Shown here one piece after another: positions 9,210 to 48,833 of a DNA stretch of 64,000 nt (positions within the stretch are counted from its first letter, which is position 1; every line of letters begins with the position of its first letter). Location: the IMG/VR virus record IMGVR_UViG_3300021091_000016. One strand, written 5' to 3'. The stretch is from a virus. The position numbers and the translations under genes were made by a program. The notes beneath the pieces were generated by a model. It was not told the DNA's origin. It did not search any database and worked only from the letters and a program-made list of their open reading frames with translations.

Positions 9210-9214
9210 CGAAA

Positions 9215-9817: not shown

Positions 9818-9930
9818 GCAAAAATAGAGTCTACTTGTAAAAATCAGAATACCATCCGTGGAGCTTCACGTAAAAGAGCTAGACCTTGACTCGAGGTCGT
9901 CTTAACTGTTTTGCATCAAAGGAAACTATC

Positions 9931-10071
9931 ATGTTCTATTCAATAGAAATCGCAATCAAATATTTAAGCTGTCTCCCCTACAATGTTAACACTTCTGTTG
10001 ATGTTGTATTACTCGATAAAACCTTTTGCGTTAGTAAAAGATACGCAATCATAACTGTAAAGGAAGTCTAA
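9931..10071 (+). CDS. small hypothetical protein
   Basis: ATG 9931 behind AAGGA, in frame with track ORF 9886..10071. Confidence 0.5.
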   Translation: MFYSIEIAIKYLSCLPYNVNTSVDVVLLDKTFCVSKRYAIITVKEV

Positions 10072-18386: not shown

Positions 18387-19542
18387 ACGTTATTCCGATG
18401 CTTTTATTAGTTATTTATTTTCCGATACTCAAAAATTTCAAATTCATGCAAACATTGAAATTGAACTAATAAGAGCGTTAGAAAAAAACCCTAACATTAA
18501 ATATCTACAAATTACTGATTCAGACGTAGTAAATATTAGAAATCTAGAAAAAACAACTAAACATGAAACAGCAGCATTTGTACAATACCTAGGTAAGTTA
18601 ATTGAAACAAACAAATACTTACATTATGGCTTAACTAGTAGTGACCTTTTAGATACTACATTAAGTGTACAATTAAAGGGTGCGTTAAACTATACTAAAA
18701 TTAATGTCGATAGAATCTCAAAACGATTAAAGGATTTATCTAATACAGATTTAAAAATCATGGGTAGAACTCATGGACAACATGCTCAAGTAATTAATCT
18801 AAAAAGCTTTTTTATGAATCATTTGTTAGAATTTGAAAGAGCATTTAATGACTTAGATGAACTAGGCAAATCCTTGACTGGAAAGCTTTCTGGTGCAGTC
18901 GGTAACAATACTTTTATCAGTCCAGATATCGAAGCATCAATTTTAGAAAAATTCTTTTTACAAAGAGAAGAGTTTGCTACACAAATTATTCCTAGAGATA
19001 AAATTGCAAGAATTCTAAATGCATTAGCACTTACTGCTTGTGCTGTTGAAAGATTAGCCTTAAATATTAGGCTTTATCAACAGACCGAAATCAATGAGTT
19101 ATCTGAAAGCTTTAATATGAATCAGGTAGGTTCATCTGCGATGCCACATAAAAAGAATCCAATTGATTCAGAAAAACTATGCGGACTATCTAGATTAGTA
19201 AGAAGCAATGCAGGTGCTGCATATGAAAACATTTGCTTATGGCAGCAAAGAGACATGAGTCATTCTAGCGTAGAAAGAATCATTATCCCTGATAGCTTTC
19301 ATTTAGTAGTACATATGTTAACTACTTTAAATAATGTATTATCTAAGCTAGTAATCAATGAAGAGGCAATTAAAAACAATTGCAATGATATTGAACTATC
19401 TCAAAAGCTACATCATCAATTAAGCTTTTTGAATTATAAAAACGCTTATAAGAAAGCTCAAGAGCTTGCACTTAGAGCTCAAAACGAAAACAAACCATTA
19501 AAAGAACTAGTAAAAGAACAACTAGGATTATCTTTAGAATGA
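18379..19542 (+). CDS. purB: adenylosuccinate lyase
   Basis: MIERY, HYGLTSSD, GRTHGQHA, GSSAMPHKKNP. Confidence 0.95.
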   Translation: MIERYSDAFISYLFSDTQKFQIHANIEIELIRALEKNPNIKYLQITDSDVVNIRNLEKTTKHETAAFVQYLGKLIETNKYLHYGLTSSDLLDTTLSVQLKGALNYTKINVDRISKRLKDLSNTDLKIMGRTHGQHAQVINLKSFFMNHLLEFERAFNDLDELGKSLTGKLSGAVGNNTFISPDIEASILEKFFLQREEFATQIIPRDKIARILNALALTACAVERLALNIRLYQQTEINELSESFNMNQVGSSAMPHKKNPIDSEKLCGLSRLVRSNAGAAYENICLWQQRDMSHSSVERIIIPDSFHLVVHMLTTLNNVLSKLVINEEAIKNNCNDIELSQKLHHQLSFLNYKNAYKKAQELALRAQNENKPLKELVKEQLGLSLE

Positions 19543-27889: not shown

Positions 27890-30800
27890 ATGATTATCTC
27901 CATTCCAAACAAAACTACCTGTATGCCAAAGGAAAAATATGAGCTATTAACAAGCCTTAATAGCTATGGTTCACTTAGCAACGAATTCTTAAATGAATTA
28001 GAGCAACAAAAGGTTTACAAAATCGATAATGTAAACTCTGTTATCAGTTCAATTGACAGAAGATATGCTCTATCAAAAAACTTATTTAACAATTTGACTT
28101 ATAAATCAAGACTTAGAAATCAATTGTTTTATCAACAGAATAATGCCTATTTAAATAAATTCTTGACTGTTTTTATAGTTGAAAATTGGCATGACAAAAA
28201 CCAAACATACTTAATTGAAAATATAGTTGCTAACTCTTGTACCCCATTTAAAAATCCTTTCATTCGTAACTTTAATGAATCTAACTTAATGAGATTGCCT
28301 AATCATCTATCAGATCAATATGCTAATTGTAATGGCTTAGAAATTAAAGACATCTATAATATGTGGCGTGCCTCTGATTCCCCAGATGAATTCAATGAAG
28401 TGCTTAAGCAATTAGCAAATGAAAATAAAATTAATCCATTTTATATTTATGCTAATGCAAGTGAGGAAACGATTCGTCAATTAATTGACGAATCAAATTC
28501 AGTTACAAAATCTAATATGAGATCAGATACAATCAGCACTTCAGATGTAAAGAGTATCATAAATAGTGGGGTGCTTGGTTTAAAATATCTCTCTAATTTT
28601 ATTTATGCATATTTATTATGTATCACTAAAGATTCGTTATTACTAGATGTAGAAAATGAATTGCTGACTACTAATAATGGAGAGTATAATTTTATAAATT
28701 TACTTTTTGATTTTTCTGGAATGAATCAAAATACAATTATGGGTGACCAATTCTCTATTACTTCTATGAACTTTGACGGATTTAAATATAGTCCAATTTC
28801 AAGCACAGAAGAAAAACAGTACAAGCTTATTAAAAAATATCATCAATATAAAGTCAGCAATGCAAAGCAAATTGCAACTCAGAATGAACTTCCAGTATTT
28901 TCATGCTTTCCAAAAGAGTGGCTAGATTCTATTGGAATTAATTATTTTGAAAATAATATCAAGGTAGAACCCTCTCTACCTATAGGCTTTGTATACACTA
29001 AGCTCGACAATTATATGTTTAATGTTACAGAGACATCTACCTTAGGTGATTTTTCATTTGTAGGAGATTATACCTTATCTAAGGTTAAAGCTAAAAATGA
29101 AATCGTTAATCTTGTAAACGATAGTCAAAAATCCGTAATTGAAATAGTTGAAAGTGCTTTCAACTTCGAAGTTGAAAAGATTAATTTAAAGGAAGCATTT
29201 TTACAAACACTCACATTTACTAATAATAAGATTAAAGCATTAGTGCTTAACAATTTTACTTCTGGTTCTCAACCATTCAATATGGAAGTAAAACAACTAA
29301 CAAAAAATCAATTGATTCAATCAAACAATGCATTCGTACCAATTGCATTCAAAACAACAAAGATAAATCAATTCACAGGCGAAAAAGAAGAAATTTATTT
29401 TGTAAGCTTAGTTAACTTCCAGCCATTAAGTAGCTTTAGAAAATATACAAAATCTCAAAGATATCTCCAATATCTGAATAATTTGATTGAGTATGATTCT
29501 ATTCAAGACCCATCTATTTATGACCAAATTCTTGTTAAAAGATTTGGAAATACAATTAAATACAATTTAGCAAATCAAGAAGTATACGAAAGCTTTGGAG
29601 AGGATTTCGTTATGAAAATAACTGAGCAAGACGTAAAAGAAATGCAGGTTATTGATAATGAAAAACTAGCTTTTTTAAATGGTAGTTTGAATATAGATGA
29701 AAAGTTAATTACTAAATTCAAAGCCTTAAAAGATAAACAAGATATAATCTTAGCTAAATACACTGAAGAAGATAAAAGACTTACTGATTTAATTGATTCA
29801 AGCATTTTAAATGACAGATATATTGAAGATGATAAAATTCAATTACAATCAATTACAGCTAGATTGAATGAAAGACTTCAACTAAAGGAAACATTTCCTA
29901 CAAAAATTCAATTACAAGAAAAAGTATCCAGTGACCAAAGAGCTTTATTCGAATCAATCTCTAAAGAAGTACAAAAGCTAAATGAAATTCAAATAGAAGC
30001 TAAAAGAGATGCAATTGAAAATAAAAATTATATTCCCGATAGTTTTTTTACTGGGTTAAAAACAAGAGGTATTTACATTCAAGAAATTGAGTATCTGGAT
30101 CAAAATCAAAATACTTTTAAATTTAACGCTAAGAACTTTAATAAGTTGAGTCTTGATAACATTCAAGATTTCACTCTAAGCTCTTTAAGTTTTATCGTTA
30201 ACAAACCATTTAAGATTAAAGTAGATGGAGATGCTGCAAATATCATTTACGCAGGACCAATGAAGGTTCAAATAACAAATTCAAGTATCTCTGTTGGTGC
30301 TTTAAATTCATCTACTATCTTAGGCTTTCTTGATAATAGAAACGCAATGGTACATCCACATTCATCTCCTATGAATTTGAGTAGCAATTTTGTAGCAACC
30401 GAATTCTTTTCATATAGAAGGGGATGCTTAGGCGAATCATCACCATATATTTACAATGCATTTAGCTCTACGTCTCCTTTAAAGAATGTTTTAGTAAATG
30501 CATTCATTTGGTTATCTAGTGCAAATAGTTCAGATCATTGGGGCAGAAATTACAAATTCTTCCCAAGATATGGCAGTACATCACTAGTTAACCTAGAAGA
30601 GGAAGCAATTAACTTAATTACCATCAATGAATATATTGAATCAGAGGAACCATTATTAAAACCTAAAAAACAATGTGAACATGAATATGAAAATTCTATA
30701 TGTATTCATTGTGGATTAGAATGTGTTGACCATAATTACGATTACGATGGTATTTGTACTATATGTGGGCATTACAATTCACGTTATGATGATTCAGATG

Positions 30801-30901
30801 AAGAAGATGAAATCTATGACGAAGAGATAACACCAGAACAAGTAAATACAGCTCCAAATGTATATACACCCTACTCTCCATTAACAAACAATAATAACTA
30901 A
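27890..30901 (+). CDS. large protein with C-terminal prokaryotic E2-like domain and Cys/His tail
   Basis: HPH...RGCLG...N..D.WG near C-terminus; coiled coil; CEH..CIHCG..C..H..CTICGH tail; adjacent to JAB and E1. Confidence 0.65.
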   Translation: MIISIPNKTTCMPKEKYELLTSLNSYGSLSNEFLNELEQQKVYKIDNVNSVISSIDRRYALSKNLFNNLTYKSRLRNQLFYQQNNAYLNKFLTVFIVENWHDKNQTYLIENIVANSCTPFKNPFIRNFNESNLMRLPNHLSDQYANCNGLEIKDIYNMWRASDSPDEFNEVLKQLANENKINPFYIYANASEETIRQLIDESNSVTKSNMRSDTISTSDVKSIINSGVLGLKYLSNFIYAYLLCITKDSLLLDVENELLTTNNGEYNFINLLFDFSGMNQNTIMGDQFSITSMNFDGFKYSPISSTEEKQYKLIKKYHQYKVSNAKQIATQNELPVFSCFPKEWLDSIGINYFENNIKVEPSLPIGFVYTKLDNYMFNVTETSTLGDFSFVGDYTLSKVKAKNEIVNLVNDSQKSVIEIVESAFNFEVEKINLKEAFLQTLTFTNNKIKALVLNNFTSGSQPFNMEVKQLTKNQLIQSNNAFVPIAFKTTKINQFTGEKEEIYFVSLVNFQPLSSFRKYTKSQRYLQYLNNLIEYDSIQDPSIYDQILVKRFGNTIKYNLANQEVYESFGEDFVMKITEQDVKEMQVIDNEKLAFLNGSLNIDEKLITKFKALKDKQDIILAKYTEEDKRLTDLIDSSILNDRYIEDDKIQLQSITARLNERLQLKETFPTKIQLQEKVSSDQRALFESISKEVQKLNEIQIEAKRDAIENKNYIPDSFFTGLKTRGIYIQEIEYLDQNQNTFKFNAKNFNKLSLDNIQDFTLSSLSFIVNKPFKIKVDGDAANIIYAGPMKVQITNSSISVGALNSSTILGFLDNRNAMVHPHSSPMNLSSNFVATEFFSYRRGCLGESSPYIYNAFSSTSPLKNVLVNAFIWLSSANSSDHWGRNYKFFPRYGSTSLVNLEEEAINLITINEYIESEEPLLKPKKQCEHEYENSICIHCGLECVDHNYDYDGICTICGHYNSRYDDSDEEDEIYDEEITPEQVNTAPNVYTPYSPLTNNNN

Positions 30902-30912: not shown

Positions 30913-32037
30913 ATGAAATCTGTAAATTCATTTAAAATCTTAACACAATCATCTGTAGAACCTTTTATCTCTATGGATTATGATTTAATGCAACAAATTC
31001 AACATATTGTTGAAATCGCACCAAAAGAAGCTCAATGGTTTCATCTAATGGAACAAATTGATTCAGCAGAATTTAGAATCTCAGAGATGTTTATTCCAGA
31101 ACAAATCTGTAGTTCCGTAGAAGTAGATACTGATAGTCAAATGATGGTACGCTTTTGGAATGAACTAAAAGAAAAATATGGCGTAGTAGAAGCCTCTAAT
31201 AAGTTAACTGTAATGACTGTTTGGTGTCACAGTCATCACAATATGGCGCCTAGTCCTAGCGCTCAAGATAATACTCAATTCTATCAATTAGTTAAACAAC
31301 AGAAGGATGCTGGGACTAATAAACCAGTACTTATGTTTATCTTTAATAAACGTAATGAATATTATTCTAGATTATGGGATCCAAAAACTAATTTAGTATA
31401 TGAAGGCTTAGATATCGTTTATACTCATTACGATATGTCTTGGATTGACGCAGAAGCTAAAAAGAAATTTAAAGAACCACCAATCGTACCTAAGAGTTTT
31501 TTAGGTACAACTCCAGCAAATACAAAAGCAACATCTTATTATTGGACGAATCCATTAAAAGATGTACCAGCATATAGCTATACTGGAAAAGCAAATGGCA
31601 ATCATTTAACTGCAAGCACATCATCAAAAATGGCTATTTCAGATTGTTTTGGAGTGACTTACAATGAATTCAATGTAATCACCCAACCAATGGCAGATGA
31701 ATTTGCAAGCTATGTTTCAGATGAATTAGAATCTCAAGAAAAATATATTTTGGCTTCGTTATTAAGAAAAGATAAAAACTTTTACAATAAAGCTTTAGAA
31801 GCAAAGAATAAGAAAATCGCTCCTAAACCATTCAAAGAAACAATTATCAAAGCTATTACCTCTAATAAAATGACAATTGGATTACTAGAATGCATTTTGA
31901 CAAATGTATTTGAAATGTATGACCAATTATTAATAGAGGATAAAGAAAGCTTTGATGTCTGGACAACAGATGTTATCGATATGATGGAAGAAACACTAAC
32001 AGAACCAAAACCTCAATATACCTTGTTCTCTAAATAA
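30913..32037 (+). CDS. JAB/MPN metallopeptidase (Ubl-processing)
   Basis: E..W, PEQ, WCHSHHNMAPSPSAQD (HxH-x7-S-x2-D). Confidence 0.88.
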   Translation: MKSVNSFKILTQSSVEPFISMDYDLMQQIQHIVEIAPKEAQWFHLMEQIDSAEFRISEMFIPEQICSSVEVDTDSQMMVRFWNELKEKYGVVEASNKLTVMTVWCHSHHNMAPSPSAQDNTQFYQLVKQQKDAGTNKPVLMFIFNKRNEYYSRLWDPKTNLVYEGLDIVYTHYDMSWIDAEAKKKFKEPPIVPKSFLGTTPANTKATSYYWTNPLKDVPAYSYTGKANGNHLTASTSSKMAISDCFGVTYNEFNVITQPMADEFASYVSDELESQEKYILASLLRKDKNFYNKALEAKNKKIAPKPFKETIIKAITSNKMTIGLLECILTNVFEMYDQLLIEDKESFDVWTTDVIDMMEETLTEPKPQYTLFSK

Positions 32038-32046
32038 AGGATAAAA

Positions 32047-32736
32047 ATGTCTGTATCATTTCTTAGACACAGTGCATTCTTTGGGCCAGAGGATGCAAAT
32101 CAATATGTATTAAATATCATTGGAGTAGGTGCAACAGGCTCTTGGATTGCTATGCTAGCTGCCAGAATGGGTTGGCACAAGTTTAGAGTATGGGATTTAG
32201 ATATTGTAGAATCTCACAATTTACCTAATCAAGCATATACCCATGATGATATTGGTAAGAAAAAAGTAATCGCGCTTAAGGAACAACTACTTAGATTCAA
32301 TCCAGAAATTGAAATTGAAACACATGATTATTTCTTTGAATCAGAAAAGCATAAAGAATTACTAGACGGGCCAGTTATCATTACTGTTGATTCACTATCT
32401 GCAAGAAAGGATATTGCAGAAGCAATTAAAGGTAATTGGAATGTCATGCATGCATTTGAAACTCGTATGGGATTTACTCATGCAGAAATCAATTACCTAG
32501 ATTGTTTAAACATCCAATCAGTAGAAAACTTTCAAAACTTACTTAAAAGCGATTCTGAAGTAACTGAAGCTGCATGTAATGAAAGAATTATCACAACTCT
32601 CACTTGCCAAGTTGCAGCAACTGTGGTACATTATTTATGTGCTTTAGTTACCAAAGATAGAAACAAGAACGAAGTACAAATTAGAAACAAAACTATTTTT
32701 ACAAATACACCCACACTTTCCGTGTTTGGTATGTAG
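32047..32736 (+). CDS. ThiF/E1-like Ubl-activating enzyme
   Basis: IIGVGATGS, DLDIVESHNLPNQ, GKKKV, VDS..AR, candidate catalytic Cys in AAC. Confidence 0.92.
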   Translation: MSVSFLRHSAFFGPEDANQYVLNIIGVGATGSWIAMLAARMGWHKFRVWDLDIVESHNLPNQAYTHDDIGKKKVIALKEQLLRFNPEIEIETHDYFFESEKHKELLDGPVIITVDSLSARKDIAEAIKGNWNVMHAFETRMGFTHAEINYLDCLNIQSVENFQNLLKSDSEVTEAACNERIITTLTCQVAATVVHYLCALVTKDRNKNEVQIRNKTIFTNTPTLSVFGM

Positions 32737-32745: not shown

Positions 32746-32973
32746 ATGCAAGAACAAGAGTTCAAATTACAAGATGAATTAACTCAATTGAGTCAAACAT
32801 TAGCAGCCTTGCAAATTGATGCTCAGAAGTTTGATGATGGTAATGGTGCGGCTGGTAGACGTGCTAGGTCTTACTTAGCAAGTTTAAGAACAAGTATGCA
32901 GTCATTGCGTTTCAAGATTCAAGAAGTAAAAAATCAAAGAATTGCACAAAAGAAAACCCAAGTTACTGAATAA
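32746..32973 (+). CDS. histone H1-like (Hc1-type) protein
   Basis: DAQKFDDGNGAAGRRAR...LR..IQ..KN. Confidence 0.75.
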   Translation: MQEQEFKLQDELTQLSQTLAALQIDAQKFDDGNGAAGRRARSYLASLRTSMQSLRFKIQEVKNQRIAQKKTQVTE

Positions 32974-32982: not shown

Positions 32983-33198
32983 ATGAGAAACATTACATTA
33001 GTAATCGTGCCAGGCACAGGCGCAAAACAAATCCAGGTAGAAGACACAATGACCGTAGCAGAGCTTGTTGCTCGTGAATCTCTATTTGGTAGAGACATCA
33101 TTGTAAATGGTGTTGGAGTACAAGCCACACAATTTAATACTCAAACCTTAGCAGGTGCAATTGAAGTATTTGCTACAGGGAGTGTTAAGGGCAATTAA
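32983..33198 (+). CDS. ubiquitin-like (beta-grasp) protein
   Basis: 71 aa, MTVAELV, IIVNG, C-terminal SVKG-N. Confidence 0.85.
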   Translation: MRNITLVIVPGTGAKQIQVEDTMTVAELVARESLFGRDIIVNGVGVQATQFNTQTLAGAIEVFATGSVKGN

Positions 33199-33401: not shown

Positions 33402-33815
33402 ATGTCTACAACAGTAATTGTTATCAAAGGCAACTCTTCTCAAAGCTTATTAAATAGAATTGCACAAGCTTTAACAGATGAAGATAGAAATGCTCAAACT
33501 ACAGAAATCAAACAAAATCTAGTAAGAGCTTTTTCAGATGCAACTCAATTAAAAACAGAAGAAAATAAAAAAGAACGCAAAAAGCATGAAATGACTTATA
33601 GATTTGATTCAAATCAAGAAAAGCTAGTAAGGGCGTTTATCAATAAGAACCCAAGCTTTACTTTTAATCAAGTCTGTAACTTTTTAAGGAATGCAGGATA
33701 TGAAAAGGTATATTTCAGAGATTTAAAAATTTGTTTAACAAAGTTTAATGCTACCTGTAGTATCGATTCAATAACCAGAAAGCATACCTGGATTGTAAAA
33801 AATGTCAGAAAATAG
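33402..33815 (+). CDS. hypothetical protein
   Basis: 137-aa ORF, AAGGA RBS. Confidence 0.65.
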   Translation: MSTTVIVIKGNSSQSLLNRIAQALTDEDRNAQTTEIKQNLVRAFSDATQLKTEENKKERKKHEMTYRFDSNQEKLVRAFINKNPSFTFNQVCNFLRNAGYEKVYFRDLKICLTKFNATCSIDSITRKHTWIVKNVRK

Positions 33816-33826: not shown

Positions 33827-33888
33827 TGTCATTTTTGACACTTTTTTTCATGTCATTTTTGACATTAATTTTTAACCAAAAAATAACA
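33827..33888. repeat. 62-bp element of TGTCA-N4-TGACA boxes, inverted copy of 16351-16412
   Basis: TGTCATTTTTGACA at 33827 and 33851; upstream of poly-Ubl gene. Confidence 0.8.
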
Positions 33889-33956
33889 CTTTTAAAGATA
33901 ATAAGAACAAAAATCTAAAGAATTGTAAGAGTCTAACAAATTTTAGGAGAATTTAT

Positions 33957-35108
33957 ATGACTACACGTAATCTTACCCTCGTTGTTGTCCCTGGTACTGG
34001 CGCACGTTCTATCTCTGTAGATACTACTATGACCGTTGCTGATCTAGTTTGTCGTGAGAATTTACACGGTAGAGATATCATTATTAACGGTGTTGGTGTC
34101 AATCCACAATCCTGGAATACCACAACACTTCAAGATGCAGTAGAAGTATTTGCAACTGGTAGTGTTAAAGGTAATGTTGATAGAACTGTAACTTTAGTAG
34201 TAGTTCCAGGTACAGGTGCTAGACAAACAACAATTCCTTCTCAAATGACCGTAGCAGATTTTGTTTGTAGAGAGAATCTCCATGGCCGTGATATTATTAT
34301 TAACGGTGTAGGTTGCGCACCAACACAATGGAATACTACAACTTTAGATGAAGCTGTTGAGATTTTCGCAACAGGCTCTGTGAAAGGTAATGTTCCACAA
34401 ACTGGAGTACTTGTTGTAGTTCCTGGAACTGGAGCAAGACAAGTAAGCTTTGATTCAGAATCTACAATTGCTGATTTCGTATGTGCTAATAATCTACATG
34501 GTAGAGATATCATTTTAGATGGCGTTGGCGTTAGTCCTACACAATGGAATAGTACTCAATTAGGTCAAGCAAGAGAAATCTTTGCAACCGGCAGTGTGAA
34601 GGGTAATGCTACTCGTACTGCAACATTAGTTGTTGTGCCAGGTACTGGTGCAAGACAGGTACAAATTGATACAGAAATGACTGTAGCTGATTTTGTATGT
34701 CGTGAGAACTTACATGGACGTGACATTATTCTTAATGGCGTAGGTGTAGCTCCACAGCAATGGAATCAGACAACACTAAATGACACTGTAGAAATCTTTG
34801 CTACAGGTTCTGTTAAAGGTAATGGCGCTGAAGGGTTTATTGAAGTGACTTATGGAAATGATGCAAAAACTTGCTTTAAGAGCTTAGTAGATACAGCTAT
34901 TTACAAGCATGGTCATAATCCTTATAGCGGTACTATTGCTACTGTATCAAGCTTTAAACTTGAAGAAACAGAGTTTCAAAATGAAGAAGCTGCATTGGCT
35001 TATGCAGATGATAAAATCGAGGACTTAGAGAAAAGAGAATGCAGAGCAGTAAGCTTTGTAGAAAATAACAAAAGAGGCTTTGTCTTTTATGGTTGGGCTG
35101 CCTGTTAA
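33957..35108 (+). CDS. poly-ubiquitin-like precursor: 4 tandem 72-aa Ubl units + C-terminal fusion domain
   Basis: Four repeats each ending FATGSVKG-N; tail domain with GHNPYSGTIA...FYGWA. Confidence 0.88.
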   Translation: MTTRNLTLVVVPGTGARSISVDTTMTVADLVCRENLHGRDIIINGVGVNPQSWNTTTLQDAVEVFATGSVKGNVDRTVTLVVVPGTGARQTTIPSQMTVADFVCRENLHGRDIIINGVGCAPTQWNTTTLDEAVEIFATGSVKGNVPQTGVLVVVPGTGARQVSFDSESTIADFVCANNLHGRDIILDGVGVSPTQWNSTQLGQAREIFATGSVKGNATRTATLVVVPGTGARQVQIDTEMTVADFVCRENLHGRDIILNGVGVAPQQWNQTTLNDTVEIFATGSVKGNGAEGFIEVTYGNDAKTCFKSLVDTAIYKHGHNPYSGTIATVSSFKLEETEFQNEEAALAYADDKIEDLEKRECRAVSFVENNKRGFVFYGWAAC

Positions 35109-35488
35109 TGCTTATTCAAATCGTTGGACTGCCAGGTGTAGGTAAAACAACGCTTATAAATAAATTTAAAAATCAATCAACTGTAGATTTCAAAACACTA
35201 GACATTAGAAGCTTTCATGCTCCAAATAGAGAAGAAAAACTAATCAATAGCATCTGTAATAAACAAACAAAATATATTATTGAATCAGCTTGCGGCATTG
35301 ATATTGAACCTTCTATAGTTATATTAATTAAACAGAAAAAGTTTAATCATAAAAAACAATTGCAAAGTAGAGGTGAAGTTTACAACGAGTATGATCTACA
35401 AGCAATTGATGATCAAATTATTCCAGCAAACTACACGGTATACAATTCAAAAGTATTTTGTGAATTACTTAACTATTTACTAAGATAA
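35108..35488 (+). CDS. P-loop kinase-like protein
   Basis: IVGLPGVGKTT; ATG overlaps previous stop. Confidence 0.7.
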   Translation: MLIQIVGLPGVGKTTLINKFKNQSTVDFKTLDIRSFHAPNREEKLINSICNKQTKYIIESACGIDIEPSIVILIKQKKFNHKKQLQSRGEVYNEYDLQAIDDQIIPANYTVYNSKVFCELLNYLLR

Positions 35489-38528: not shown

Positions 38529-40250
38529 ATGACTTATCAATATTCAGAACATGCAATTAGTTTATTAAAAAATTTCTACATGTTAAATGACGAGACAAAA
38601 CCAGAGGAAGCGTTAAAAAGAGCTGCATATGCATATTCTGCGGGAGACAATGAATTAGCAGAGCGTATATTTCAATACGCTCTTGATGGTTGGTTTATGT
38701 TTTCAAGTCCAATATTAAGTAATGCAAGACTGGATAATTCTAAAACAGGATTACCTATTAGCTGTTTTTTAACTTATGTACCTGATACTGTTGAAGGCTT
38801 AATCGAGCATTCAACTGAATTAAGATGGATGAGCGTAATGGGTGGCGGAGTAGGCGGACATTGGTCTGACGTTAGGTCTGTATCTAATAAAGCTCCTGGT
38901 CCAATTCCATTTATTAAAACTGTAGACAGTGACATGCAAGCCTGGAAGCAAGGAGTCACTAGAAAGGGTAGCTATGCTGCTTACATTGACGTTAGTCATC
39001 CTGATATTATTGAATTTATTAATATTAGGGTGCCTACTGGTGGTGATACGAATAGAAAGTGCTTTACTATTAATAATGCTGTCTGTCTTACGGACAAATT
39101 CATGAATGCAGTTGCCGATGGCTTAGACTGGCAATTAATAGATCCTGCATCAAATGAAGTGAAGGAAACTATGCCAGCTAGAGAGCTTTGGCAAAGAATC
39201 CTTGAAGTTAGATTTAGAACTGGAGAACCATATTTCTTCTTTACAGACACTGCTAACAAGCATTTACCACAATCACTCAAAGAAAAAGGTCTTAAAATTC
39301 ATGGTTCAAATTTGTGTAATGAGATTTTTCTTTGCACAGATGAAAATAGATCTGCTGTATGCTGTTTATCATCGTTAAATCTTGAGTATTTTGACGAATG
39401 GAAAAATACAACAATTGTTGAGGACTGCATTACCTTCTTAGATAATGTACTACAATACTTTATCGAGAACGCACCAAAGCAATTACACAGAGCTATTTAC
39501 TCTGCAATTCAAGAACGCTCACTAGGACTAGGAGCAATGGGTTTCCATTCGTTACTTCAAAGAAATAATATAGCCTGGGAATCTCCTATGGCTAAAGGTT
39601 TAAATAGAAGAGTGTTTAAGCTAATTCAAGAGCGCGCAATTAAACAAACAGAATTGTTAGCTGCTGAACGTGGGGAATACTTAGATGGTATTGGATATGG
39701 TAGAAGGAATAGTCATCTACTTGCAATAGCACCTAATGCTAATAGTAGTATTATCTTAGATACATCTCCTAGTATTGAACCTTGGAAATCAAATGCCTTT
39801 ACACACCGTACTAGAGCAGGTAGCTTCTTACAAAAAAACAAATATCTAGATGGACTTCTTTTAAAGGTATTCGCAAATGACGAAACAAAATATAACGAAG
39901 CATGGCAATCAATTGTTTTGAATCAAGGCTCTGTACAACACTTAGATTGTTTAAACGAATACCAAAAGGGAGTATTTAAAACAGCGTTTGAAATTAATCA
40001 AGCTTGGTTAATTGAACATGCTGCGGATAGACAAGAATTTATCTGTCAAGGACAATCCTTAAATCTTTTCTTTCCAGCTGGAAGTGATAAAGCGTATGTT
40101 AATTACGTACATATTTTAGCTTGGAAAAAAGGATTAAAAGGATTATATTACCTTCGAACAAATTCTGGTGCTAAATTAGAAAAGATTTCTGAAAAAATCG
40201 AACGAAAAGCACTTAAGGATTATGACGAATGTGTTTCTTGCCAAGGATAA
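38529..40250 (+). CDS. nrdA: ribonucleotide reductase class Ia alpha subunit (no ATP cone)
   Basis: SSPIL, PISCF, GSNLCNEI, IAPNA, YYLR, C-terminal CVSCQG. Confidence 0.96.
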   Translation: MTYQYSEHAISLLKNFYMLNDETKPEEALKRAAYAYSAGDNELAERIFQYALDGWFMFSSPILSNARLDNSKTGLPISCFLTYVPDTVEGLIEHSTELRWMSVMGGGVGGHWSDVRSVSNKAPGPIPFIKTVDSDMQAWKQGVTRKGSYAAYIDVSHPDIIEFINIRVPTGGDTNRKCFTINNAVCLTDKFMNAVADGLDWQLIDPASNEVKETMPARELWQRILEVRFRTGEPYFFFTDTANKHLPQSLKEKGLKIHGSNLCNEIFLCTDENRSAVCCLSSLNLEYFDEWKNTTIVEDCITFLDNVLQYFIENAPKQLHRAIYSAIQERSLGLGAMGFHSLLQRNNIAWESPMAKGLNRRVFKLIQERAIKQTELLAAERGEYLDGIGYGRRNSHLLAIAPNANSSIILDTSPSIEPWKSNAFTHRTRAGSFLQKNKYLDGLLLKVFANDETKYNEAWQSIVLNQGSVQHLDCLNEYQKGVFKTAFEINQAWLIEHAADRQEFICQGQSLNLFFPAGSDKAYVNYVHILAWKKGLKGLYYLRTNSGAKLEKISEKIERKALKDYDECVSCQG

Positions 40251-45212: not shown

Positions 45213-45284
45213 TATGGATCAAGATGATGACTTATTCTCTGTAATATTTTTTTTAACAATAATCCTTTATGTAATTGTAAATTG

Positions 45285-46343
45285 ATGCAAAATAAAAACT
45301 TTAATAAATATTTAAAACTTCTAACTGACAAAACATACGAAAACATTAATGAATCTCAAACAATTGATTGGCTAATTGCACCAATGTTAAGAGATTTATT
45401 TGAATGGGATCGTGAAGACCCAGAAGAAGTAAAAGCACAATGGCGAAAGCTTACAGATGGTGAAAGAGAAAACCCTGTAGACTTTGCTTTATTTGTACCT
45501 AATCAAACTAAACCAATTGCTTTAGTAGAAGCTAAAAGATTAAATGAAAAGCTAGTAGGTAAACCAGTTAGTCAGGCAATCTCGTATTGTATCTCTGCTA
45601 ATGTGCGTTGGGCTATTTTGACAAACGGATTAGAATGGAAGGTCTATGACGCGTTAGACCTATCAAAAGATGAATTAACAGATAGATTATTATTTCAAGT
45701 TAACATTTTAGATTTTATTGAAAATAGATCTGAAATGAATAACGTAGATTTAATTTCAAAAACAAAAATAGAATCATTAGAACAAATCATTCAAAATCAA
45801 AAGATCAAAGCAACTGTAGAATCATTCTTTGATTTAGATTTACATTTAAACTTATTCAGCGAGTTCATTAGTAATCAAACTAAATATAAAGTAGATTCTG
45901 TAAAAGAAATATTAAAAGATTATTGCGTCGAATTAAAAAAGAAACAAGCTGCACCAGTTAAAATATTGAATTGGCAAAGAGTAACTCAAGAATTAGATCC
46001 AAATACTAAATTAACTTCTTTAAGAGTAAAAACAAAAGATGATGATTATGTATTTGATTTTAAGAATTGGACACAAGCACTAGAGAATACTGTATCTTTC
46101 TTGTTCGACAGATATGATAAACTTCAAATGCTTTATTCAAATGAAAATCTTAAACAATATATTTCTACAAACAAACAAACATTACAAAAAGACTATGTAC
46201 TAGATTCATCTATTAAACAAATTAAAGGTGGATTTTTAAGTACACATTCAGCAACACAAACAAAACTAAAGTTAATTATTGCATTGAAAGATTATTTAAA
46301 TAGCGCTAATGAAACTGTAGATTGCTTTTATTTAGAAAGTTAA
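45285..46343 (+). CDS. HsdR_N-like PD-(D/E)xK restriction nuclease domain protein
   Basis: E..T...LI.P.L, VDFAL, VEAKR, QA.SY, ILTNG..W..YD. Confidence 0.8.
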   Translation: MQNKNFNKYLKLLTDKTYENINESQTIDWLIAPMLRDLFEWDREDPEEVKAQWRKLTDGERENPVDFALFVPNQTKPIALVEAKRLNEKLVGKPVSQAISYCISANVRWAILTNGLEWKVYDALDLSKDELTDRLLFQVNILDFIENRSEMNNVDLISKTKIESLEQIIQNQKIKATVESFFDLDLHLNLFSEFISNQTKYKVDSVKEILKDYCVELKKKQAAPVKILNWQRVTQELDPNTKLTSLRVKTKDDDYVFDFKNWTQALENTVSFLFDRYDKLQMLYSNENLKQYISTNKQTLQKDYVLDSSIKQIKGGFLSTHSATQTKLKLIIALKDYLNSANETVDCFYLES

Positions 46344-46346
46344 TAA

Positions 46347-48833
46347 ATGAATATAGATGAGTTTGCACAAAGACTTGCAGAACAAACAAAAGTATTAAAA
46401 CAAAATCTAATTAAAGATTTAAATGAATCTGAAACTTTAAGTGAGCTTAGAGATAGTATTCAAAAGAATTTAATTGCAGATATTAATGACGAATCGTTTT
46501 CTGATTTATTTGCGCAAACCATTTCTTATTCAATGTTTGCTGCAAAACAGATTTATAACGAATCAAATAAAGATTCAGATAAATTTACATTTGAGGATAT
46601 TATTTTTTATATGCCTCAATCTAATCCATTCTTAAAACAATTCTTTTATATTTTAGAAGAGAATAGTAAAATCTTAAATCAAAATATTTTTGATTCAATT
46701 AATCAGATATTTAATTTAGTTAAAGAAAATGATTTATCAATTACAGAACATCAACGTGGTGATTTGCTAATTCATTTTTATGAAGATTTTTTACAATACT
46801 ATTCACCTGAAACAAGAAAGAATCTTGGAGTATGGTACACTCCAGAACCAATCGTAGATTACATGATTGATATGTCACAATTGTTTTTAAAAGATAAATT
46901 AAATATTAATGGTGGTTTTTTAAACAATGAATATTGTGACGAAAAATATAGTAAAGTTCAAGTATTAGATCCTGCAACTGGTACTGGTAATTTTCTAGTA
47001 AGAATTGCAACAAGAATTTGCGATTCAATTGAAAATAGTAAAAAACGTTTTGAATATATTAGAGATCATTTAATTAATAAACTAAATGGCTTTGAATTAT
47101 TAATGACGTCTTATACTATTGCTAATTTTAAATTAGATCAGTTATTTAGACACTATGGTTACAAAGTAAAAACTAGTAATGGTCGCCAAAGAACAAACAT
47201 ATACTTAACTAATACCTTAGATAAAGTTTCAGTAAATGAAATTTTACTTGAAAAAGATAACTTTGTAGGTTTACTTGCAAGAGAAACTGAAGGAGCTAAT
47301 CAAGTAAAAGAAAATAAACCAGTATTTGTTGTAATTGGTAACCCACCATACAACCGTAATAGTAAAAACAACTCTAAATTTATTACTGATTTAATGCAAA
47401 CGTATAAAGCAGATTTCAATACCGCTGGTGGTTTAAATGACGATTATATTAAATTCTTTAGATACGCTCATGATTTAATTAGTAGGCAAGAAACAGGTTT
47501 AATTTCATTTATTACTAGTAATAGCTTTATCAAATCTCAGGCTTGTCAACAAATGAGAGTTTCGCTTCTGAAAGATTTTGATGAAATTTATATTTTAAAT
47601 TTAAACGGTGATAAAACAAAAGAAGATAAAAACGTTTTTGATATCAAAACGAATGTATGTATCACTTTTTTAATCAAAACAGGATTAAAAGAAAAGTATG
47701 ATTTTGGAGAAGTATTCTATGCAGATTTAATTGGTAGTAAGTGGTTCAAATTTCAATGTTTACAAAATAAAGATATTCATTTTCAAAAGCTAACACTTGA
47801 AGCACCTAATTATTTCTTTATTCCTTTAGATAATGAATTATTAAAAATTTATAATGAAGGATTTTCGCTAGGAGATATATTTAAAGTTAAAGGTGCTGGA
47901 GTACTAACAGCAACTGATGAATTATTAGTAAATACTAAACTCGATAAATTAAAATCAAATATCAAGCTTCATTTAGAATCACAGAATAGTCCATTTAAAG
48001 GAGTCTCTCTAAACAAAAAAGAAAAAGACGCAAATGGTACCTACAAGACTTTTGCTTATAGACCATTTGATAATCGTTATTATTATGATTCAAAGATGAC
48101 AGAAGGAAAAAGATTAGAGCTTGTAAAGCATGAATCAATTCAAGATAATTTCTATTTTAATTTCACTGCATCAGTAAGAGATAGTAGTGATTTTAAACAT
48201 GTTGTACTTACAAAAGGTACTCCAGAGTTTGCTTTTTTTACAGGAAAAGCAAACACGCATTCTGCACCACTATATATCTATAACGAACAAAATAAAGTAG
48301 AATCTAATATAAAAGAATCATTTATAAAAGAAATAAATGATTGTCTAGGCGATACAGAAATAGAAGCAAAACATATTATGGACTATATATATGGTTATTT
48401 AAATATGCCTAGTTATGTAGAGAAGTTCAATGGTTTACTTAAACAGAATTATCCAAGAGTACCATATCCAAAAGACTATGATGAGTTTTATAGAATAGCT
48501 AATATTGGCGCGCAACTAAGACAACATCATTTGTTCTCTTTCGAAATAGACTCTTTTGAAATAGAAACGACTGTGTTTGCAAATGTAAAGTTTCCATGCA
48601 AAATAAATGTCAATAATAAGCTAGAAATTAATGTCATTAATGACATTAATTTTCAATTAAAAAATGACATTTGGGAATTCAAGATTGGTGCCTGTCAGAT
48701 TTTAAAGAACTGGATTAAAGCTAGAGTAAATGAAGAAATTACATTTGAAGAGTTTTTGCATTTTCTAAAAATGATTAATGCAATCGAAGAAACTATTAAA
48801 CTTAGAAATAAGCTTAATGAAACAAAGGATTAA
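46347..48833 (+). CDS. N6-adenine DNA methyltransferase with type ISP/IIG-like specificity domain
   Basis: GVWYTP, LDPATGTG, GNPPY, YRPFD, YPRVP, F.IG..Q.L..W.K.R. Confidence 0.9.
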   Translation: MNIDEFAQRLAEQTKVLKQNLIKDLNESETLSELRDSIQKNLIADINDESFSDLFAQTISYSMFAAKQIYNESNKDSDKFTFEDIIFYMPQSNPFLKQFFYILEENSKILNQNIFDSINQIFNLVKENDLSITEHQRGDLLIHFYEDFLQYYSPETRKNLGVWYTPEPIVDYMIDMSQLFLKDKLNINGGFLNNEYCDEKYSKVQVLDPATGTGNFLVRIATRICDSIENSKKRFEYIRDHLINKLNGFELLMTSYTIANFKLDQLFRHYGYKVKTSNGRQRTNIYLTNTLDKVSVNEILLEKDNFVGLLARETEGANQVKENKPVFVVIGNPPYNRNSKNNSKFITDLMQTYKADFNTAGGLNDDYIKFFRYAHDLISRQETGLISFITSNSFIKSQACQQMRVSLLKDFDEIYILNLNGDKTKEDKNVFDIKTNVCITFLIKTGLKEKYDFGEVFYADLIGSKWFKFQCLQNKDIHFQKLTLEAPNYFFIPLDNELLKIYNEGFSLGDIFKVKGAGVLTATDELLVNTKLDKLKSNIKLHLESQNSPFKGVSLNKKEKDANGTYKTFAYRPFDNRYYYDSKMTEGKRLELVKHESIQDNFYFNFTASVRDSSDFKHVVLTKGTPEFAFFTGKANTHSAPLYIYNEQNKVESNIKESFIKEINDCLGDTEIEAKHIMDYIYGYLNMPSYVEKFNGLLKQNYPRVPYPKDYDEFYRIANIGAQLRQHHLFSFEIDSFEIETTVFANVKFPCKINVNNKLEINVINDINFQLKNDIWEFKIGACQILKNWIKARVNEEITFEEFLHFLKMINAIEETIKLRNKLNETKD

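What the first reader, a model, noticed from the sequence alone, without database searches (positions are those of the whole stretch)
33957..35108. Head-to-tail poly-Ubl precursor with a fused cargo domain, like eukaryotic polyubiquitin and Ub-fusion genes
Seen: four 72-aa units, each keeping the full FATGSVKG-N end, the same junction as the stand-alone Ubl at 32983. The units are well conserved in protein but differ at many synonymous sites, which implies purifying selection on every unit. After the fourth KG comes a ~94-aa domain (NGAEGF...GHNPYSGTIA...FYGWAAC) that resembles a family I recall as stand-alone small phage proteins beginning MGA. Inference: JAB cleaves at each G|N, releasing four conjugatable Ubls plus a cargo protein. 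This differs from multi-domain bacterial Ubls, where generally only the last domain carries the reactive Gly.
Basis: partly seen in the sequence, partly recalled or inferred. Interest (0 to 1): 0.9.

Follow-up and report, generated by a model that had tools for sequence, protein, structure and literature searches.

The report
Phage polyubiquitin-like precursor with fused cargo
An uncultured ~150-kb phage carries a gene built like eukaryotic polyubiquitin: four head-to-tail ubiquitin-like units, each with its own conserved tail, plus a fused unrelated small protein. It sits beside the phage's own activating enzyme and trimming peptidase, and the cutting itself is inferred, not shown.

Summary
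ORF 33957-35108 (+) encodes four 72-aa units, each ending FATGSVKG-N, followed by a 95-aa domain. The stand-alone Ubl at 32983-33198 ends the same way.

- **Selection:** the units share 61-74% nucleotide identity. dS is saturated and dN/dS is 0.10-0.32 between units, and 0.18-0.29 for each unit against its ortholog.
- **Fold:** AF2 gives four beta-grasp beads with disordered junctions. The best PDB match is linear tetra-ubiquitin (E 6e-14).
- **Relatives:** these ~150-160-kb phage contigs carry 2, 3 or 4 units plus the same cargo, 3 units plus a short tail, or three separate Ubl genes. Different units are missing in different proteins, and all 128 junctions read SVKG-N.
- **Cargo:** it belongs to an unannotated, mostly viral family of ~100-aa proteins that start MGA. 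In one sister lineage it is a separate gene at the same position.
- **Peptidase:** a complex prediction places the Ubl tail in the JAMM site (0.61 against a best control of 0.00).

The polyubiquitin/Ub-fusion reading is therefore well supported by comparison, but cleavage is not shown. One problem remains: Asn follows Gly in 120 of 120 stand-alone Ubls, 52 end exactly at Asn, and none ends at Gly. The scissile bond (G|N or after N) and the activated residue are therefore open. The E2 assignment is untested.

Unchecked notes from this scan report similar phage poly-Ubl genes on other DNA. I found no paper describing this.

The parts
33957..35108 (+). Poly-Ubl-cargo gene: 383 aa, made of four Ubl units plus a 95-aa cargo domain
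33957..34172 (+). Ubl unit 1 (aa 1-72, ends SVKG)
   Evidence: Ortholog dN/dS is 0.29.
34173..34388 (+). Ubl unit 2 (aa 73-144; begins with the invariant Asn, ends SVKG)
   Evidence: Ortholog dN/dS is 0.18.
34389..34604 (+). Ubl unit 3 (aa 145-216). It is the most divergent unit class and is recognisable in orthologs.
   Evidence: Ortholog dN/dS is 0.27.
34605..34820 (+). Ubl unit 4 (aa 217-288)
   Evidence: Ortholog dN/dS is 0.20.
34821..35105 (+). Cargo domain (aa 289-383; starts NGAEGF, ends GWAAC). It belongs to an unannotated, mostly viral family of small proteins that start MGA.
   Evidence: for homologs. The AF2 model has pLDDT 92.5. No clear PDB fold match was found, and there is no Pfam family.
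33945..33949 (+). Shine-Dalgarno AGGAG, 7 nt before the ATG
32983..33198 (+). Stand-alone Ubl, 71 aa, ending SVKGN-stop
30913..32037 (+). JAB/JAMM peptidase. The catalytic domain is about aa 1-190 (E39, H106, H108, S116, D119), followed by a C-terminal helical part.
   Evidence: Pfam Prok-JAB E 1.3e-5; PADLOC JAB; invariant motif residues; complex prediction
32047..32736 (+). ThiF/E1-like adenylating enzyme, 229 aa
   Evidence: Pfam ThiF E 5.9e-24; NCBIfam and PADLOC hits; nearest PDB relatives
32746..32973 (+). Hc1-like (histone H1-like) 75-aa basic protein. It lies between E1 and the Ubl in all five related locus types read (L001, L002/L003, L004-L006, L010, L011).
   Evidence: Pfam Hc1 E 1.1e-11; synteny
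27890..30901 (+). 1003-aa protein whose conserved C-terminal domain carries HPH...CLGE. It is a candidate E2-like enzyme and this is unconfirmed.
   Evidence: Conserved motifs. No Pfam or PDB sequence match. The only lead is a weak language-model hit.
33402..33815 (+). 137-aa ORF between the two Ubl genes. A weakly similar domain is fused behind a Ubl unit in another phage (P0041 / L011).
   Evidence: hhalign probability only 12.6%, so inconclusive
35093..35488 (+). P-loop NTPase/kinase-like gene. It directly follows the cargo in two lineages, whether the cargo is fused (window, L001) or free (L004).

Best explanation
The gene encodes a precursor polyprotein that works like a eukaryotic polyubiquitin gene joined to a ubiquitin-fusion gene. 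One mRNA with one ribosome-binding site yields four beta-grasp Ubl units strung together by exposed, disordered ...ATGSVKG-N tails, and then an unrelated 95-aa protein.

I infer that the phage's own JAMM peptidase (30913-32037) binds each unit, takes its tail into the metal site and cuts at every junction. This would release four slightly different Ubl monomers and the free cargo protein. It would trim the stand-alone Ubl (32983-33198) in the same way.

I further infer that the released Ubls are adenylated at their new C-terminus by the ThiF/E1-like enzyme (32047-32736) and passed on to targets, probably through the E2-like C-terminal domain of the 1003-aa protein.

Shown here by computation: the repeat anatomy, purifying selection on every unit, the beta-grasp fold, the flexible junctions, the copy-number variation and split forms in relatives, the independent existence of the cargo, and a predicted JAB-tail interface.

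Inferred only: that cleavage happens, that JAB performs it, which peptide bond is cut, and that the units are conjugated to proteins.
For: 1. **Anatomy and selection.** Four 72-aa units each carry the full tail. Paralog dN/dS is 0.10-0.32 with saturated dS. Ortholog dN/dS per unit is 0.18-0.29, and the junction is encoded by different codons.
2. **Fold.** AF2 gives four bb-a-bb-b units at pLDDT 70-90. The junctions at 69-73, 141-145, 213-216 and 285-291 fall below 50, and pTM is 0.29, so the units are beads on a string. The Foldseek top hits are linear tetra-ubiquitin 7eb9_A (E 6e-14) and 7yui_A, then linear di-ubiquitin and ISG15. There is a weak ThiS HMM hit.
3. **Relatives.** There are 10 clusters with 4 units plus cargo, 19 with 3 plus cargo, 2 with 2 plus cargo, and 8 with 3 units plus a 1-12-aa tail after the Asn. 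All 128 junctions read SVKG-N. In the unit tree the 3-unit proteins lack different units (u2, u3 or u4) and 2-unit proteins such as P0027 are u1+u4, which indicates repeated unit-precise gain and loss.
4. **Split forms.** In L010 the same locus has three separate Ubl genes. In L004 the cargo homolog is its own gene (9591-9899, starting MGAQTF) at the same position before the P-loop gene.
5. **Cargo family.** There are 156 representatives at E<1e-3, mostly stand-alone proteins of about 100 aa that align from residue 2.
6. **Synteny.** The order JAB - ThiF - Hc1 - Ubl - polyUbl is conserved. The JAMM residues are invariant.
7. **Complex prediction, JAB(1-195) with the Ubl.** The median score is 0.61 and the best of 3 controls is 0.00. 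This mark was reached by 58 of 80 solved complexes and 2 of 110 mismatched pairs. The runs agree in at least 43% of contacts and the partner's pLDDT is at least 85. The interface joins JAB residues 39, 41, 104, 106, 108, 116 and 118-119 to Ubl tail residues 65-71. JAMM-Ub complexes have been solved, so this pass may partly reflect likeness to known structures.
8. **Need for removal.** A C-terminal cargo blocks the last unit's tail. In characterised bacterial Ubls, the extra domains described lie N-terminal to the beta-grasp domains (PMC11601603).
Against: - There is no protein-level evidence of cleavage.
- Asn after Gly is invariant at all 128 junctions and in 120 of 120 stand-alone Ubls. Of those, 52 end exactly at Asn and none ends at Gly. 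This is unexpected if Asn were merely the first residue of a disposable extension. The cut may therefore lie after Asn, or Asn may belong to the activated end.
- The units are not homogenised as in true polyubiquitin (61-79% identity, with stable unit classes). They could therefore have distinct roles.
- Bacterial Ubl2/Ubl3 proteins function intact.
- The E2-like assignment has no Pfam or PDB support.
- The Ubl profile finds no solved relative by sequence.
Confidence: 0.62

Rival explanations
1. The protein is still a precursor, but the functional C-terminus is Asn and not Gly. The cut would fall after the invariant Asn (KGN|x), either by the JAB or by Asn cyclisation. Alternatively the Gly-Asn end is what the ThiF-like enzyme activates, as MccB does with the C-terminal Asn of MccA through a succinimide intermediate.
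For: - All 120 stand-alone Ubls keep Asn after Gly. Of these, 52 end exactly at Asn, none ends at Gly, and the extensions after Asn vary freely in length and sequence.
- P2' is variable and P1' Asn is invariant at all 128 junctions.
- ThiF-like MccB enzymes act on peptides with a C-terminal Asn and form a succinimide (PMC4010828).
- By sequence, the nearest solved relatives of the E1 include the RiPP enzymes PaaA (7.5e-10) and MccB (1e-5) alongside UBA5.
- In stand-alone cargo proteins, Gly2 directly follows Met1 and is invariant.
Against: - From established knowledge of the family, JAMM peptidases normally cut directly after the Ubl's terminal Gly, and Lys-Gly is also invariant here.
- The 229-aa E1 seems too short to hold the N-terminal peptide-clamp domain that I recall MccB having. 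This was not tested.
- The E1's matches to PaaA and MccB cover only the generic nucleotide-binding region.
- Some cargo-family members carry long N-terminal extensions, so a free N-terminal Gly is not required.
- The predicted interface includes both G70 and N71 and cannot tell the two bonds apart.
Confidence: 0.13
2. The protein acts intact as a multi-domain Ubl scaffold and is never cut between units. This would resemble bacterial Ubl2/Ubl3 or ISG15. It might present four Ubl surfaces together with the cargo domain, or act as a decoy for host Ubl or deubiquitinase-type defence enzymes.
For: - Bacterial Bil/Bub Ubls with two or three beta-grasp domains are used intact, and some form filaments (PMC11601603).
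- The units have diverged into stable classes and are not kept identical.
Against: - Every unit keeps the complete tail of the stand-alone Ubl.
- Copy number varies from 2 to 4 among close relatives, with different units missing.
- A sister lineage has separate Ubl genes.
- The cargo is a separate gene elsewhere.
- There is no confident inter-unit packing (pTM 0.29, junction pLDDT below 50).
Confidence: 0.1
3. The units are released, but they serve as ThiS/MoaD-type sulfur carriers and not as protein modifiers. The E1 would thiocarboxylate them for a phage-directed thiolation reaction, and the JAB would only trim precursors, as in the CysO/Mec+ and QbsE/QbsD pathways (from my own knowledge).
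For: - The best HMM hits are ThiS for the units (TIGR01683, E 2.9e-9, 37.2 bits against a cut-off of 37.45) and ThiF for the E1.
- JGI annotates several homologs as ThiS.
- The E2 assignment is unconfirmed.
Against: - No ThiG/ThiH/MoaE-type or other sulfur-acceptor enzyme and no rhodanese or cysteine desulfurase turned up in the genes scanned around the locus.
- The tail is K-G-N and not the G-G of sulfur carriers.
- A large conserved protein with an HPH...C motif always precedes the JAB.
- Four to five carrier copies per genome is hard to rationalise for a cofactor pathway.
Confidence: 0.1

Closest known systems
Eukaryotic polyubiquitin genes (UBI4/UBB/UBC type) and ubiquitin-ribosomal-protein fusion genes (UBA52/RPS27A type)
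   Same: - Units are joined head to tail with no spacer, and each has a complete C-terminal tail.
- Copy number varies between relatives.
- The last unit is capped by extra residues. In relatives without cargo this cap is a 1-12-aa tail after the Asn, and the stand-alone Ubl ends in a single Asn.
- In other genes a Ubl is fused in front of an unrelated protein that also exists on its own.
- A dedicated peptidase is encoded alongside.
- The best structural match is linear tetra-ubiquitin.
   Different: - There is no detectable sequence homology to ubiquitin. The units are closer to ThiS than to ubiquitin by HMM, and the tail is K-G-N and not G-G.
- The units are 61-79% identical and form stable classes, so they are not homogenised by concerted evolution.
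- The presumed processing enzyme is a JAMM metallopeptidase.
- Poly-units and cargo are combined in one gene.
- The cargo is not a ribosomal protein.
- The gene is carried by a phage.
Bacterial poly-Ubl proteins of Bub/Bil operons (operon type 6e of Iyer, Burroughs and Aravind 2006, PMC1779556; Ubl2/Ubl3 of Gong et al. 2024, PMC11601603)
   Same: Two to three tandem beta-grasp domains sit in one protein, next to E1-, E2- and JAB-type genes. [quoted passage not shown]
   Different: - The bacterial proteins are described as intact modifiers or filaments, and their extra domains are N-terminal.
- Here every unit repeats the full tail and junction of the stand-alone Ubl.
- A cargo domain follows the last tail.
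- Relatives split the units into separate genes.
- The JAB and E1 are separate proteins, and no DUF6527 protease was seen among the neighbours scanned.
BilABCD (bacterial ISG15-like anti-phage system)
   Same: The gene set is Ubl + (candidate) E2 + JAB + E1, and the Ubl is made with a C-terminal extension that must be removed.
   Different: - The locus lies in a phage genome among replication and nucleotide-metabolism genes, and not in a bacterial defence island.
- The Ubl tail is K-G-N.
- The E2 is unconfirmed and sits at the end of a protein of about 800-1100 aa in the relatives read.
- The locus includes an Hc1-like protein, which is not listed among the Bil genes.
- PADLOC gives only generic E1-E2 and JAB hits.
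MccA/MccB and related ThiF-like RiPP systems
   Same: A ThiF-family adenylating enzyme acts on a ribosomal product whose C-terminal residue is an obligatory Asn (PMC4010828). Here 52 of 120 stand-alone Ubls end in Asn and none in Gly.
   Different: - The substrate here is a folded 70-aa beta-grasp protein and not a short peptide.
- No export, immunity or modification genes of mcc clusters were seen.
- I do not expect the MccB N-terminal clamp domain in a 229-aa E1, but this was not tested.

Membership tests
Ubiquitin-like beta-grasp superfamily (Ub/ThiS/MoaD) | Beta-grasp fold (b-b-a-b-b-b) | tested here: met
   In the AF2 model each unit reads E-E-H-E-E-E at pLDDT 70-90. Foldseek matches linear tetra-, tri- and di-ubiquitin and ISG15, with a best E of 6e-14.
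Ubiquitin-like beta-grasp superfamily (Ub/ThiS/MoaD) | Flexible C-terminal tail ending in Gly, which is the activated residue | tested here: inconclusive
   The tail ATGSVKG is invariant and disordered. However, Gly is always followed by Asn and no homolog ends at Gly.
Ubiquitin-like beta-grasp superfamily (Ub/ThiS/MoaD) | Sequence-profile match to a curated Ubl family | tested here: inconclusive
   TIGR01683 (ThiS) gives E 2.9e-9 and 37.2 bits, just under its 37.45 cut-off, and only for the four-unit protein. Pfam has no hit for a single unit. The PDB profile search found nothing.
Polyubiquitin-type precursor gene | Head-to-tail units without spacer, each with the complete C-terminal tail | tested here: met
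Polyubiquitin-type precursor gene | Copy number varies between related genomes by whole units | tested here: met
   Relatives have 2, 3 or 4 units, and different units are missing in different proteins.
Polyubiquitin-type precursor gene | Units kept (near) identical in protein by concerted evolution | tested here: not met
   Units are 61-79% identical and stable unit classes persist across phages.
Polyubiquitin-type precursor gene | Units are homologous in sequence to ubiquitin | tested here: not met
   No ubiquitin-family Pfam hit was found. Identity to ubiquitin chains in the structural alignments is about 10%.
Polyubiquitin-type precursor gene | Cut into monomers by a dedicated peptidase | not testable with these tools
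   The only support is a predicted JAB-tail interface: score 0.61 against a best control of 0.00, a mark reached by 58 of 80 solved complexes and 2 of 110 mismatched pairs.
Ubiquitin-fusion (Ub-cargo) gene | The fused C-terminal partner is an independent protein elsewhere | tested here: met
   It is a separate gene at L004:9591-9899 in the syntenic position. There are 156 representative relatives, mostly stand-alone.
BilABCD / bacterial E1-E2-JAB-Ubl conjugation operons | ThiF-type E1 with adenylation motifs | tested here: met
   PF00899 E 5.9e-24; PADLOC E1-E2 1.2e-13
BilABCD / bacterial E1-E2-JAB-Ubl conjugation operons | JAMM peptidase with E...HxH...S..D | tested here: met
   PF14464 gives 25.5 bits against a cut-off of 25. 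E39, H106, H108, S116 and D119 are invariant in 4 lineages.
BilABCD / bacterial E1-E2-JAB-Ubl conjugation operons | E2 (UBC-fold) enzyme with a catalytic Cys | tested here: inconclusive
   A conserved HPH...CLGE motif is present in the 1003-aa protein. There is no Pfam or PDB sequence match. The only lead is a language-model hit at 0.82 to a cluster in which 11% of members carry Prok-E2_D.
BilABCD / bacterial E1-E2-JAB-Ubl conjugation operons | Encoded by the bacterium as an anti-phage defence locus | tested here: not met
   The locus lies in ~150-160-kb phage-like contigs between a Lon-like AAA+ gene and PhoH/Whirly/SpoVG/RNR genes, with conserved synteny.
Bub / 6e poly-Ubl (Ubl2/Ubl3) | Several beta-grasp domains acting as one intact modifier, with JAB-E1 or E2-E1 fusions and a DUF6527 protease | tested here: not met
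   The JAB and E1 are separate genes, and no DUF6527 hit was found among the proteins scanned. Every unit carries its own tail. Whether the protein acts intact was not testable.
PRTRC cassette (operon type 6d) | Matches to the PRTRC ThiF, JAB, E2 and Ubl models | tested here: not met
   Only TIGR03736 (PRTRC_ThiF) matched, at 28.7 bits against a cut-off of 144.75. No PRTRC hit was found for the JAB, the Ubl or the large protein.
MccB-type ThiF-like enzyme with an Asn-terminated substrate | The substrate's obligatory C-terminal residue is Asn | tested here: inconclusive
   Of 120 stand-alone Ubls, 52 end at Asn, none ends at Gly, and the rest carry extensions after Asn. The mature end is unknown.

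The most novel reading that the evidence does not exclude
The invariant Gly-Asn is not just a cleavage site. It is the chemistry of the system. The mature Ubl would end in Asn. The ThiF-like enzyme would activate it as MccB does, by adenylation followed by an Asn succinimide. That activated end would then be captured by a target amine or a nucleotide. This would make it a ubiquitin-like tagging pathway that runs on an Asn terminus and not on a Gly terminus. The poly-Ubl gene would be its multi-copy substrate supply.
Probability: 0.1. Interest if true: 0.92.

Novelty: new variant of a known kind. Interest (0 to 1): 0.75.

Why it matters
To my knowledge, the polyubiquitin and ubiquitin-fusion gene layouts (many modifier copies, or a modifier plus another protein, made as one chain and cut apart) are usually regarded as eukaryotic features. 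Bacterial multi-domain Ubls studied so far are used intact.

Here a family of uncultured ~150-160-kb phages shows the whole set:
- a capped single Ubl;
- 2-4-unit precursors whose copy number changes by whole units;
- Ubl-cargo fusions with at least two different cargo types;
- split versions of the same units in sister phages.

All of these lie beside the phage's own E1 and JAMM peptidase. If cleavage is confirmed, this layout has arisen independently, or very early, outside eukaryotes. It would also show that a virus of bacteria runs its own Ubl system, where the characterised bacterial systems act against phages.

The finding offers a compact, expressible test case of about 4 kb. It could address how JAMM peptidases read linear junctions, what the obligatory Asn is for, and what a phage tags with a Ubl. 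It also gives a first functional handle on a large unannotated viral protein family, the MGA...GWA 'cargo' family.

Tried and rejected
- **GenBank phages.** megablast of the locus and tblastn of the protein found nothing. The nearest GenBank phage ThiF-like genes (Flavobacterium FpV4, Xanthomonas PhiXhv-15) have different neighbours, and the small ORF after the Xanthomonas ThiF is not a Ubl.
- **IMG/VR.** The scan with the single protein found no relative. The scan with an alignment found one locus.
- **Ubl profile against PDB sequences.** No meaningful hit.
- **Cargo profile against PDB sequences.** Only sub-threshold matches to lambda-type tip attachment protein J (E 0.15-0.64). I do not count these as evidence.
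- **Cargo fold search.** Foldseek on the PDB gave a best E of 0.024. VIA-align wide gave a best Z of 4.5 (rmsd 4.2 A, 74 residues aligned) to thiolase and condensation-type domains, which is within the noise range stated by the tool. Pfam gave nothing, and PHROGs gave only a weak hit for 5 of 60 members to an unnamed family.
- **E2-like domain.** Pfam at E<=10, PDB sequences and the atlas feature search gave no usable confirmation. JAB profile against PDB sequences: no hit.
- **P0041 cargo versus the window's 137-aa ORF.** BLASTP gave E 0.067 and hhalign gave probability 12.6%, so homology is not established.
- **P0042.** This is a capsid-like N-terminal part joined to half a Ubl on an 890-nt contig. 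The capsid-like part has no match in the window, and I treat it as a possible assembly chimera.
- **Whole genome.** Not held.
- **Free N-terminal Gly on the cargo.** I considered and dropped the idea that the cargo needs one, which would have argued for a cut after Asn. Several family members have long N-terminal extensions.
Full report
**Observation.** The ORF at 33957-35108 (+) has a strong Shine-Dalgarno (AGGAG at 33945-33949) and encodes 383 aa. The motif SVKGN occurs four times at a 72-residue period, so the protein is four units of exactly 72 aa (Gly at 72, 144, 216 and 288) followed by 95 aa. Tandem Repeats Finder sees the 216-nt period. The stand-alone 71-aa gene at 32983-33198 has the same body and ends SVKGN-stop.

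Pairwise, the units are 61-74% identical in DNA and 61-79% in protein. dS is saturated (1.1-2.2) and dN/dS is 0.15-0.31. Against the stand-alone copy, dN/dS is 0.10-0.32. Each unit compared with its ortholog in a related phage (L002) gives dN/dS 0.18-0.29. The junction residues are written with different codons, including both Ser codon families, so the conservation acts on protein and is not recent gene conversion.

**Fold.** An AF2 model of the whole protein (21-sequence alignment, mean pLDDT 76) gives four b-b-a-b-b-b units at pLDDT 70-90. Confidence falls below 50 exactly at the four junctions (69-73, 141-145, 213-216, 285-291) and pTM is 0.29, so the units behave as beads on a string with no fixed packing. 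Foldseek against the PDB returns linear (head-to-tail) tetra-ubiquitin as the best match (7eb9_A, E 6e-14; 7yui_A), followed by linear di-ubiquitin, a Naegleria polyubiquitin and ISG15. Sequence profiles are weak. ThiS TIGR01683 scores 37.2 bits, just under its cut-off. Pfam and PDB sequence searches find nothing for a single unit.

**Neighbours.** Upstream lie five genes:
- a 1003-aa protein;
- a JAB/JAMM peptidase (Prok-JAB; E39, H106, H108, S116 and D119 invariant in four lineages);
- a 229-aa ThiF/E1-like enzyme (E 5.9e-24);
- an Hc1-like basic protein;
- the stand-alone Ubl.

This order is conserved in related contigs of about 150-160 kb and in shorter fragments (L001-L006, L010, L011). 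The surrounding genes are phage-like: AAA+, PhoH, Whirly, SpoVG, RNR, a DnaE-type polymerase and a PurA-like gene. GenBank phages hold no relative of the poly-Ubl gene, and only distant (about 30% identical) relatives of the E1.

**Comparative evidence for a precursor.** Forty related proteins fall into four groups:
- 10 clusters with four units plus the same C-terminal domain;
- 19 with three units plus that domain;
- 2 with two units plus that domain;
- 8 with three units followed only by 1-12 residues after the Asn.

All 128 junctions read SVKG-N, while the next residue varies. A tree of the units recovers unit classes. It shows that three-unit proteins lack different units (u2, u3 or u4) and that two-unit proteins such as P0027 are u1+u4, so units have been gained or lost repeatedly and always in register.

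In L010 the same locus has three separate Ubl genes in a row. One ends at Asn, one has a 9-residue tail after the Asn, and one has a 41-residue Gly/Arg-rich tail. In L011 a single unit is fused through the same SVKG-N junction to a different 145-aa domain.

Monomers encoded as separate genes in one lineage and as a chain in another, always with the same tail, are what a precursor-and-processing model expects. An obligatory intact scaffold would not predict this pattern.

**The cargo.** The last 95 residues have no Pfam family. A full HMMER scan of 1.84 billion representatives finds 156 relatives at E<1e-3. Most are stand-alone proteins of 90-110 aa that align from their residue 2 to residue 2 of the fused domain. 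They begin MGA, share a GH.GY.GTI motif and end ..FGWA.. at the very C-terminus. In the fused form the junction Asn therefore sits where the initiator Met sits in the free form.

In L004, whose poly-Ubl has no cargo, the cargo homolog is a separate gene (9591-9899) directly before the same P-loop gene that follows the fused cargo in the window. The domain folds confidently (pLDDT 92.5, b-a-b-a-b-b). It has no convincing solved relative (Foldseek best E 0.024; VIA best Z 4.5, rmsd 4.2 A, 74 aligned). Its nearest predicted structures are unnamed, mostly viral clusters. BFVD contains a 311-aa uncharacterised three-unit-plus-cargo homolog from an uncultured Caudovirales phage. The cargo's function remains unknown.

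**JAB and the tail.** A complex prediction of JAB residues 1-195 with the stand-alone Ubl gave a median score of 0.61 against a best control of 0.00. This mark was reached by 58 of 80 solved complexes and 2 of 110 mismatched pairs. The runs agree in at least 43% of contacts and the partner's pLDDT is at least 85. The confident interface joins JAB residues 39, 41, 104, 106, 108, 116 and 118-119, which form the JAMM site, to Ubl residues 65-71, which form the tail. Because JAMM-ubiquitin complexes are solved, this pass may partly reflect likeness. It supports binding and does not show cleavage.

**What does not fit neatly.** Among 120 stand-alone Ubl homologs, all have Asn after the tail Gly. 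Of these, 52 end exactly at that Asn and none ends at Gly. The rest carry extensions of 1 to 41 further residues of unrelated sequence. If Asn were only the first residue of a throw-away cap, some genes should end at Gly.

There are two possible explanations. Asn may be an obligatory P1' determinant for the peptidase, in which case processing is compulsory even for the single-unit gene. Or Asn may belong to the mature, activated end. The second possibility has a precedent in the same enzyme superfamily: MccB, a ThiF-like enzyme, acts on peptides with an obligatory C-terminal Asn through a succinimide (PMC4010828). By sequence, the nearest solved relatives of the E1 are a mix of RiPP enzymes (PaaA, MccB) and Ubl E1s (UBA5), matched only over the nucleotide-binding part. 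I cannot decide between the two with these tools. I give the Asn-terminus version about 0.13.

**Conjugation.** That the released units are attached to proteins is an inference. The E1 has the adenylation motifs, and a Cys in an ACNxR motif is conserved in the lineages I read. The proposed E2 is a conserved C-terminal domain of the large upstream protein, with HPH followed by CLGE. It has no Pfam or PDB sequence match, and the only lead is a weak language-model hit to Prok-E2_D. A sulfur-carrier role is therefore kept as a rival, although no acceptor enzyme was seen nearby.

**Comparison with what is known.** Iyer, Burroughs and Aravind (2006) described bacterial operons with two to three tandem Ubl domains and called them reminiscent of polyubiquitin (PMC1779556). 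Later work shows that such Bil/Bub Ubl2/Ubl3 proteins act intact, with additional domains at the N-terminus, and that some form Ca-dependent filaments (PMC11601603).

The phage gene differs in four ways. Each unit repeats the whole tail and junction of the monomer. A foreign domain follows the last tail. Copy number changes by whole units. Sister phages split the chain into genes. In function it resembles eukaryotic polyubiquitin plus Ub-fusion genes. It is not a member of that family, because there is no sequence homology to ubiquitin, the tail is K-G-N, and the units are not homogenised. It is not a Bil, Bub or PRTRC member by the tests listed in the membership table.

My literature searches found no description of a phage-encoded poly-Ubl precursor. 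Unchecked notes from this scan report similar tandem Ubl genes in other phages, including K-G-N tails. The phenomenon is therefore probably wider than this lineage.

**Verdict.** The polyubiquitin/Ub-fusion reading is supported by fold, selection and above all by comparative anatomy. Cleavage, the exact bond and conjugation remain to be shown. I class it as a new variant of a known kind and rate interest at 0.75.

Noticed in passing
window 33827-33840 and 33851-33864: Two perfect TGTCATTTTTGACA palindromes lie 24 nt apart in the 141-nt gap just upstream of the poly-Ubl gene. They look like an operator. The poly-Ubl gene may therefore be regulated separately from the stand-alone Ubl.
   Followed up: partly
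window 32746-32973; L002 6767-6988; L004 7462-7656; L010 5744-5929; L011 2205-2432: A small Hc1-like (histone H1-like) basic protein is always encoded between the E1 and the first Ubl gene. It could be a partner or a target of the system.
   Followed up: no
L010 6275-6517 and 6822-7160; proteins P0033-P0039: The extensions after the KG-N tail are not random. Several end in a shared ..NFTM(HLL) motif, both on single Ubls and on three-unit proteins. Others are 25-41-aa Gly/Arg-rich tails (GRPSGGGRGNN) that resemble RGG nucleic-acid-binding tails.
   Followed up: no
L011 2716-3369 (P0041) and window 33402-33815: One Ubl unit is fused through SVKG-N to a different ~145-aa domain. That domain sits where the window has a free 137-aa ORF. 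Similarity between the two is weak (hhalign probability 12.6%).
   Followed up: partly
protein P0042 (890-nt ENA contig): An ORF joins a capsid-like N-terminal part (precomputed Pfam hit PF13252) to the second half of a Ubl ending SVKGN. It is either an assembly chimera or a natural structural-protein-Ubl fusion.
   Followed up: partly
window 17202-18386 and 18379-19542: An adenylosuccinate synthetase-like gene (PurA/PurZ-type, E 4.6e-110) lies next to an adenylosuccinate lyase-like gene. In phages such PurA homologs can mark 2-aminoadenine (Z-base) DNA synthesis.
   Followed up: no
window 51218-52477 and 53529-55139: A DnaE-type Pol III alpha is split into two ORFs about 1 kb apart: PHP plus the start of the NTPase domain, then the rest plus the finger domain. 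This suggests an intervening element or a naturally split polymerase.
   Followed up: no
window 45282-48833: An HSDR_N-like ORF is followed by an 828-aa Type ISP/MmeI-like methyltransferase-specificity protein, all inside the phage.
   Followed up: no
L002 12562-15390 compared with window 38529-40250: The class I RNR large subunit of the related phage carries an intein with a LAGLIDADG endonuclease (942 aa). The window's copy (573 aa) lacks it.
   Followed up: no
window 1-10000: GC content is about 0.42 over the first 10 kb, which includes an 1843-aa ORF at 3128-8659 with no Pfam hit. The rest of the window is about 0.30.
   Followed up: no
proteins P0046 (3579 aa, 18 matched stretches) and P0077 (1897 aa, 4 stretches): The cargo (MGA...GWA) domain also occurs as a many-fold repeat inside giant proteins, and with large insertions before its last strand (for example P0061 and P0049).
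   Followed up: no
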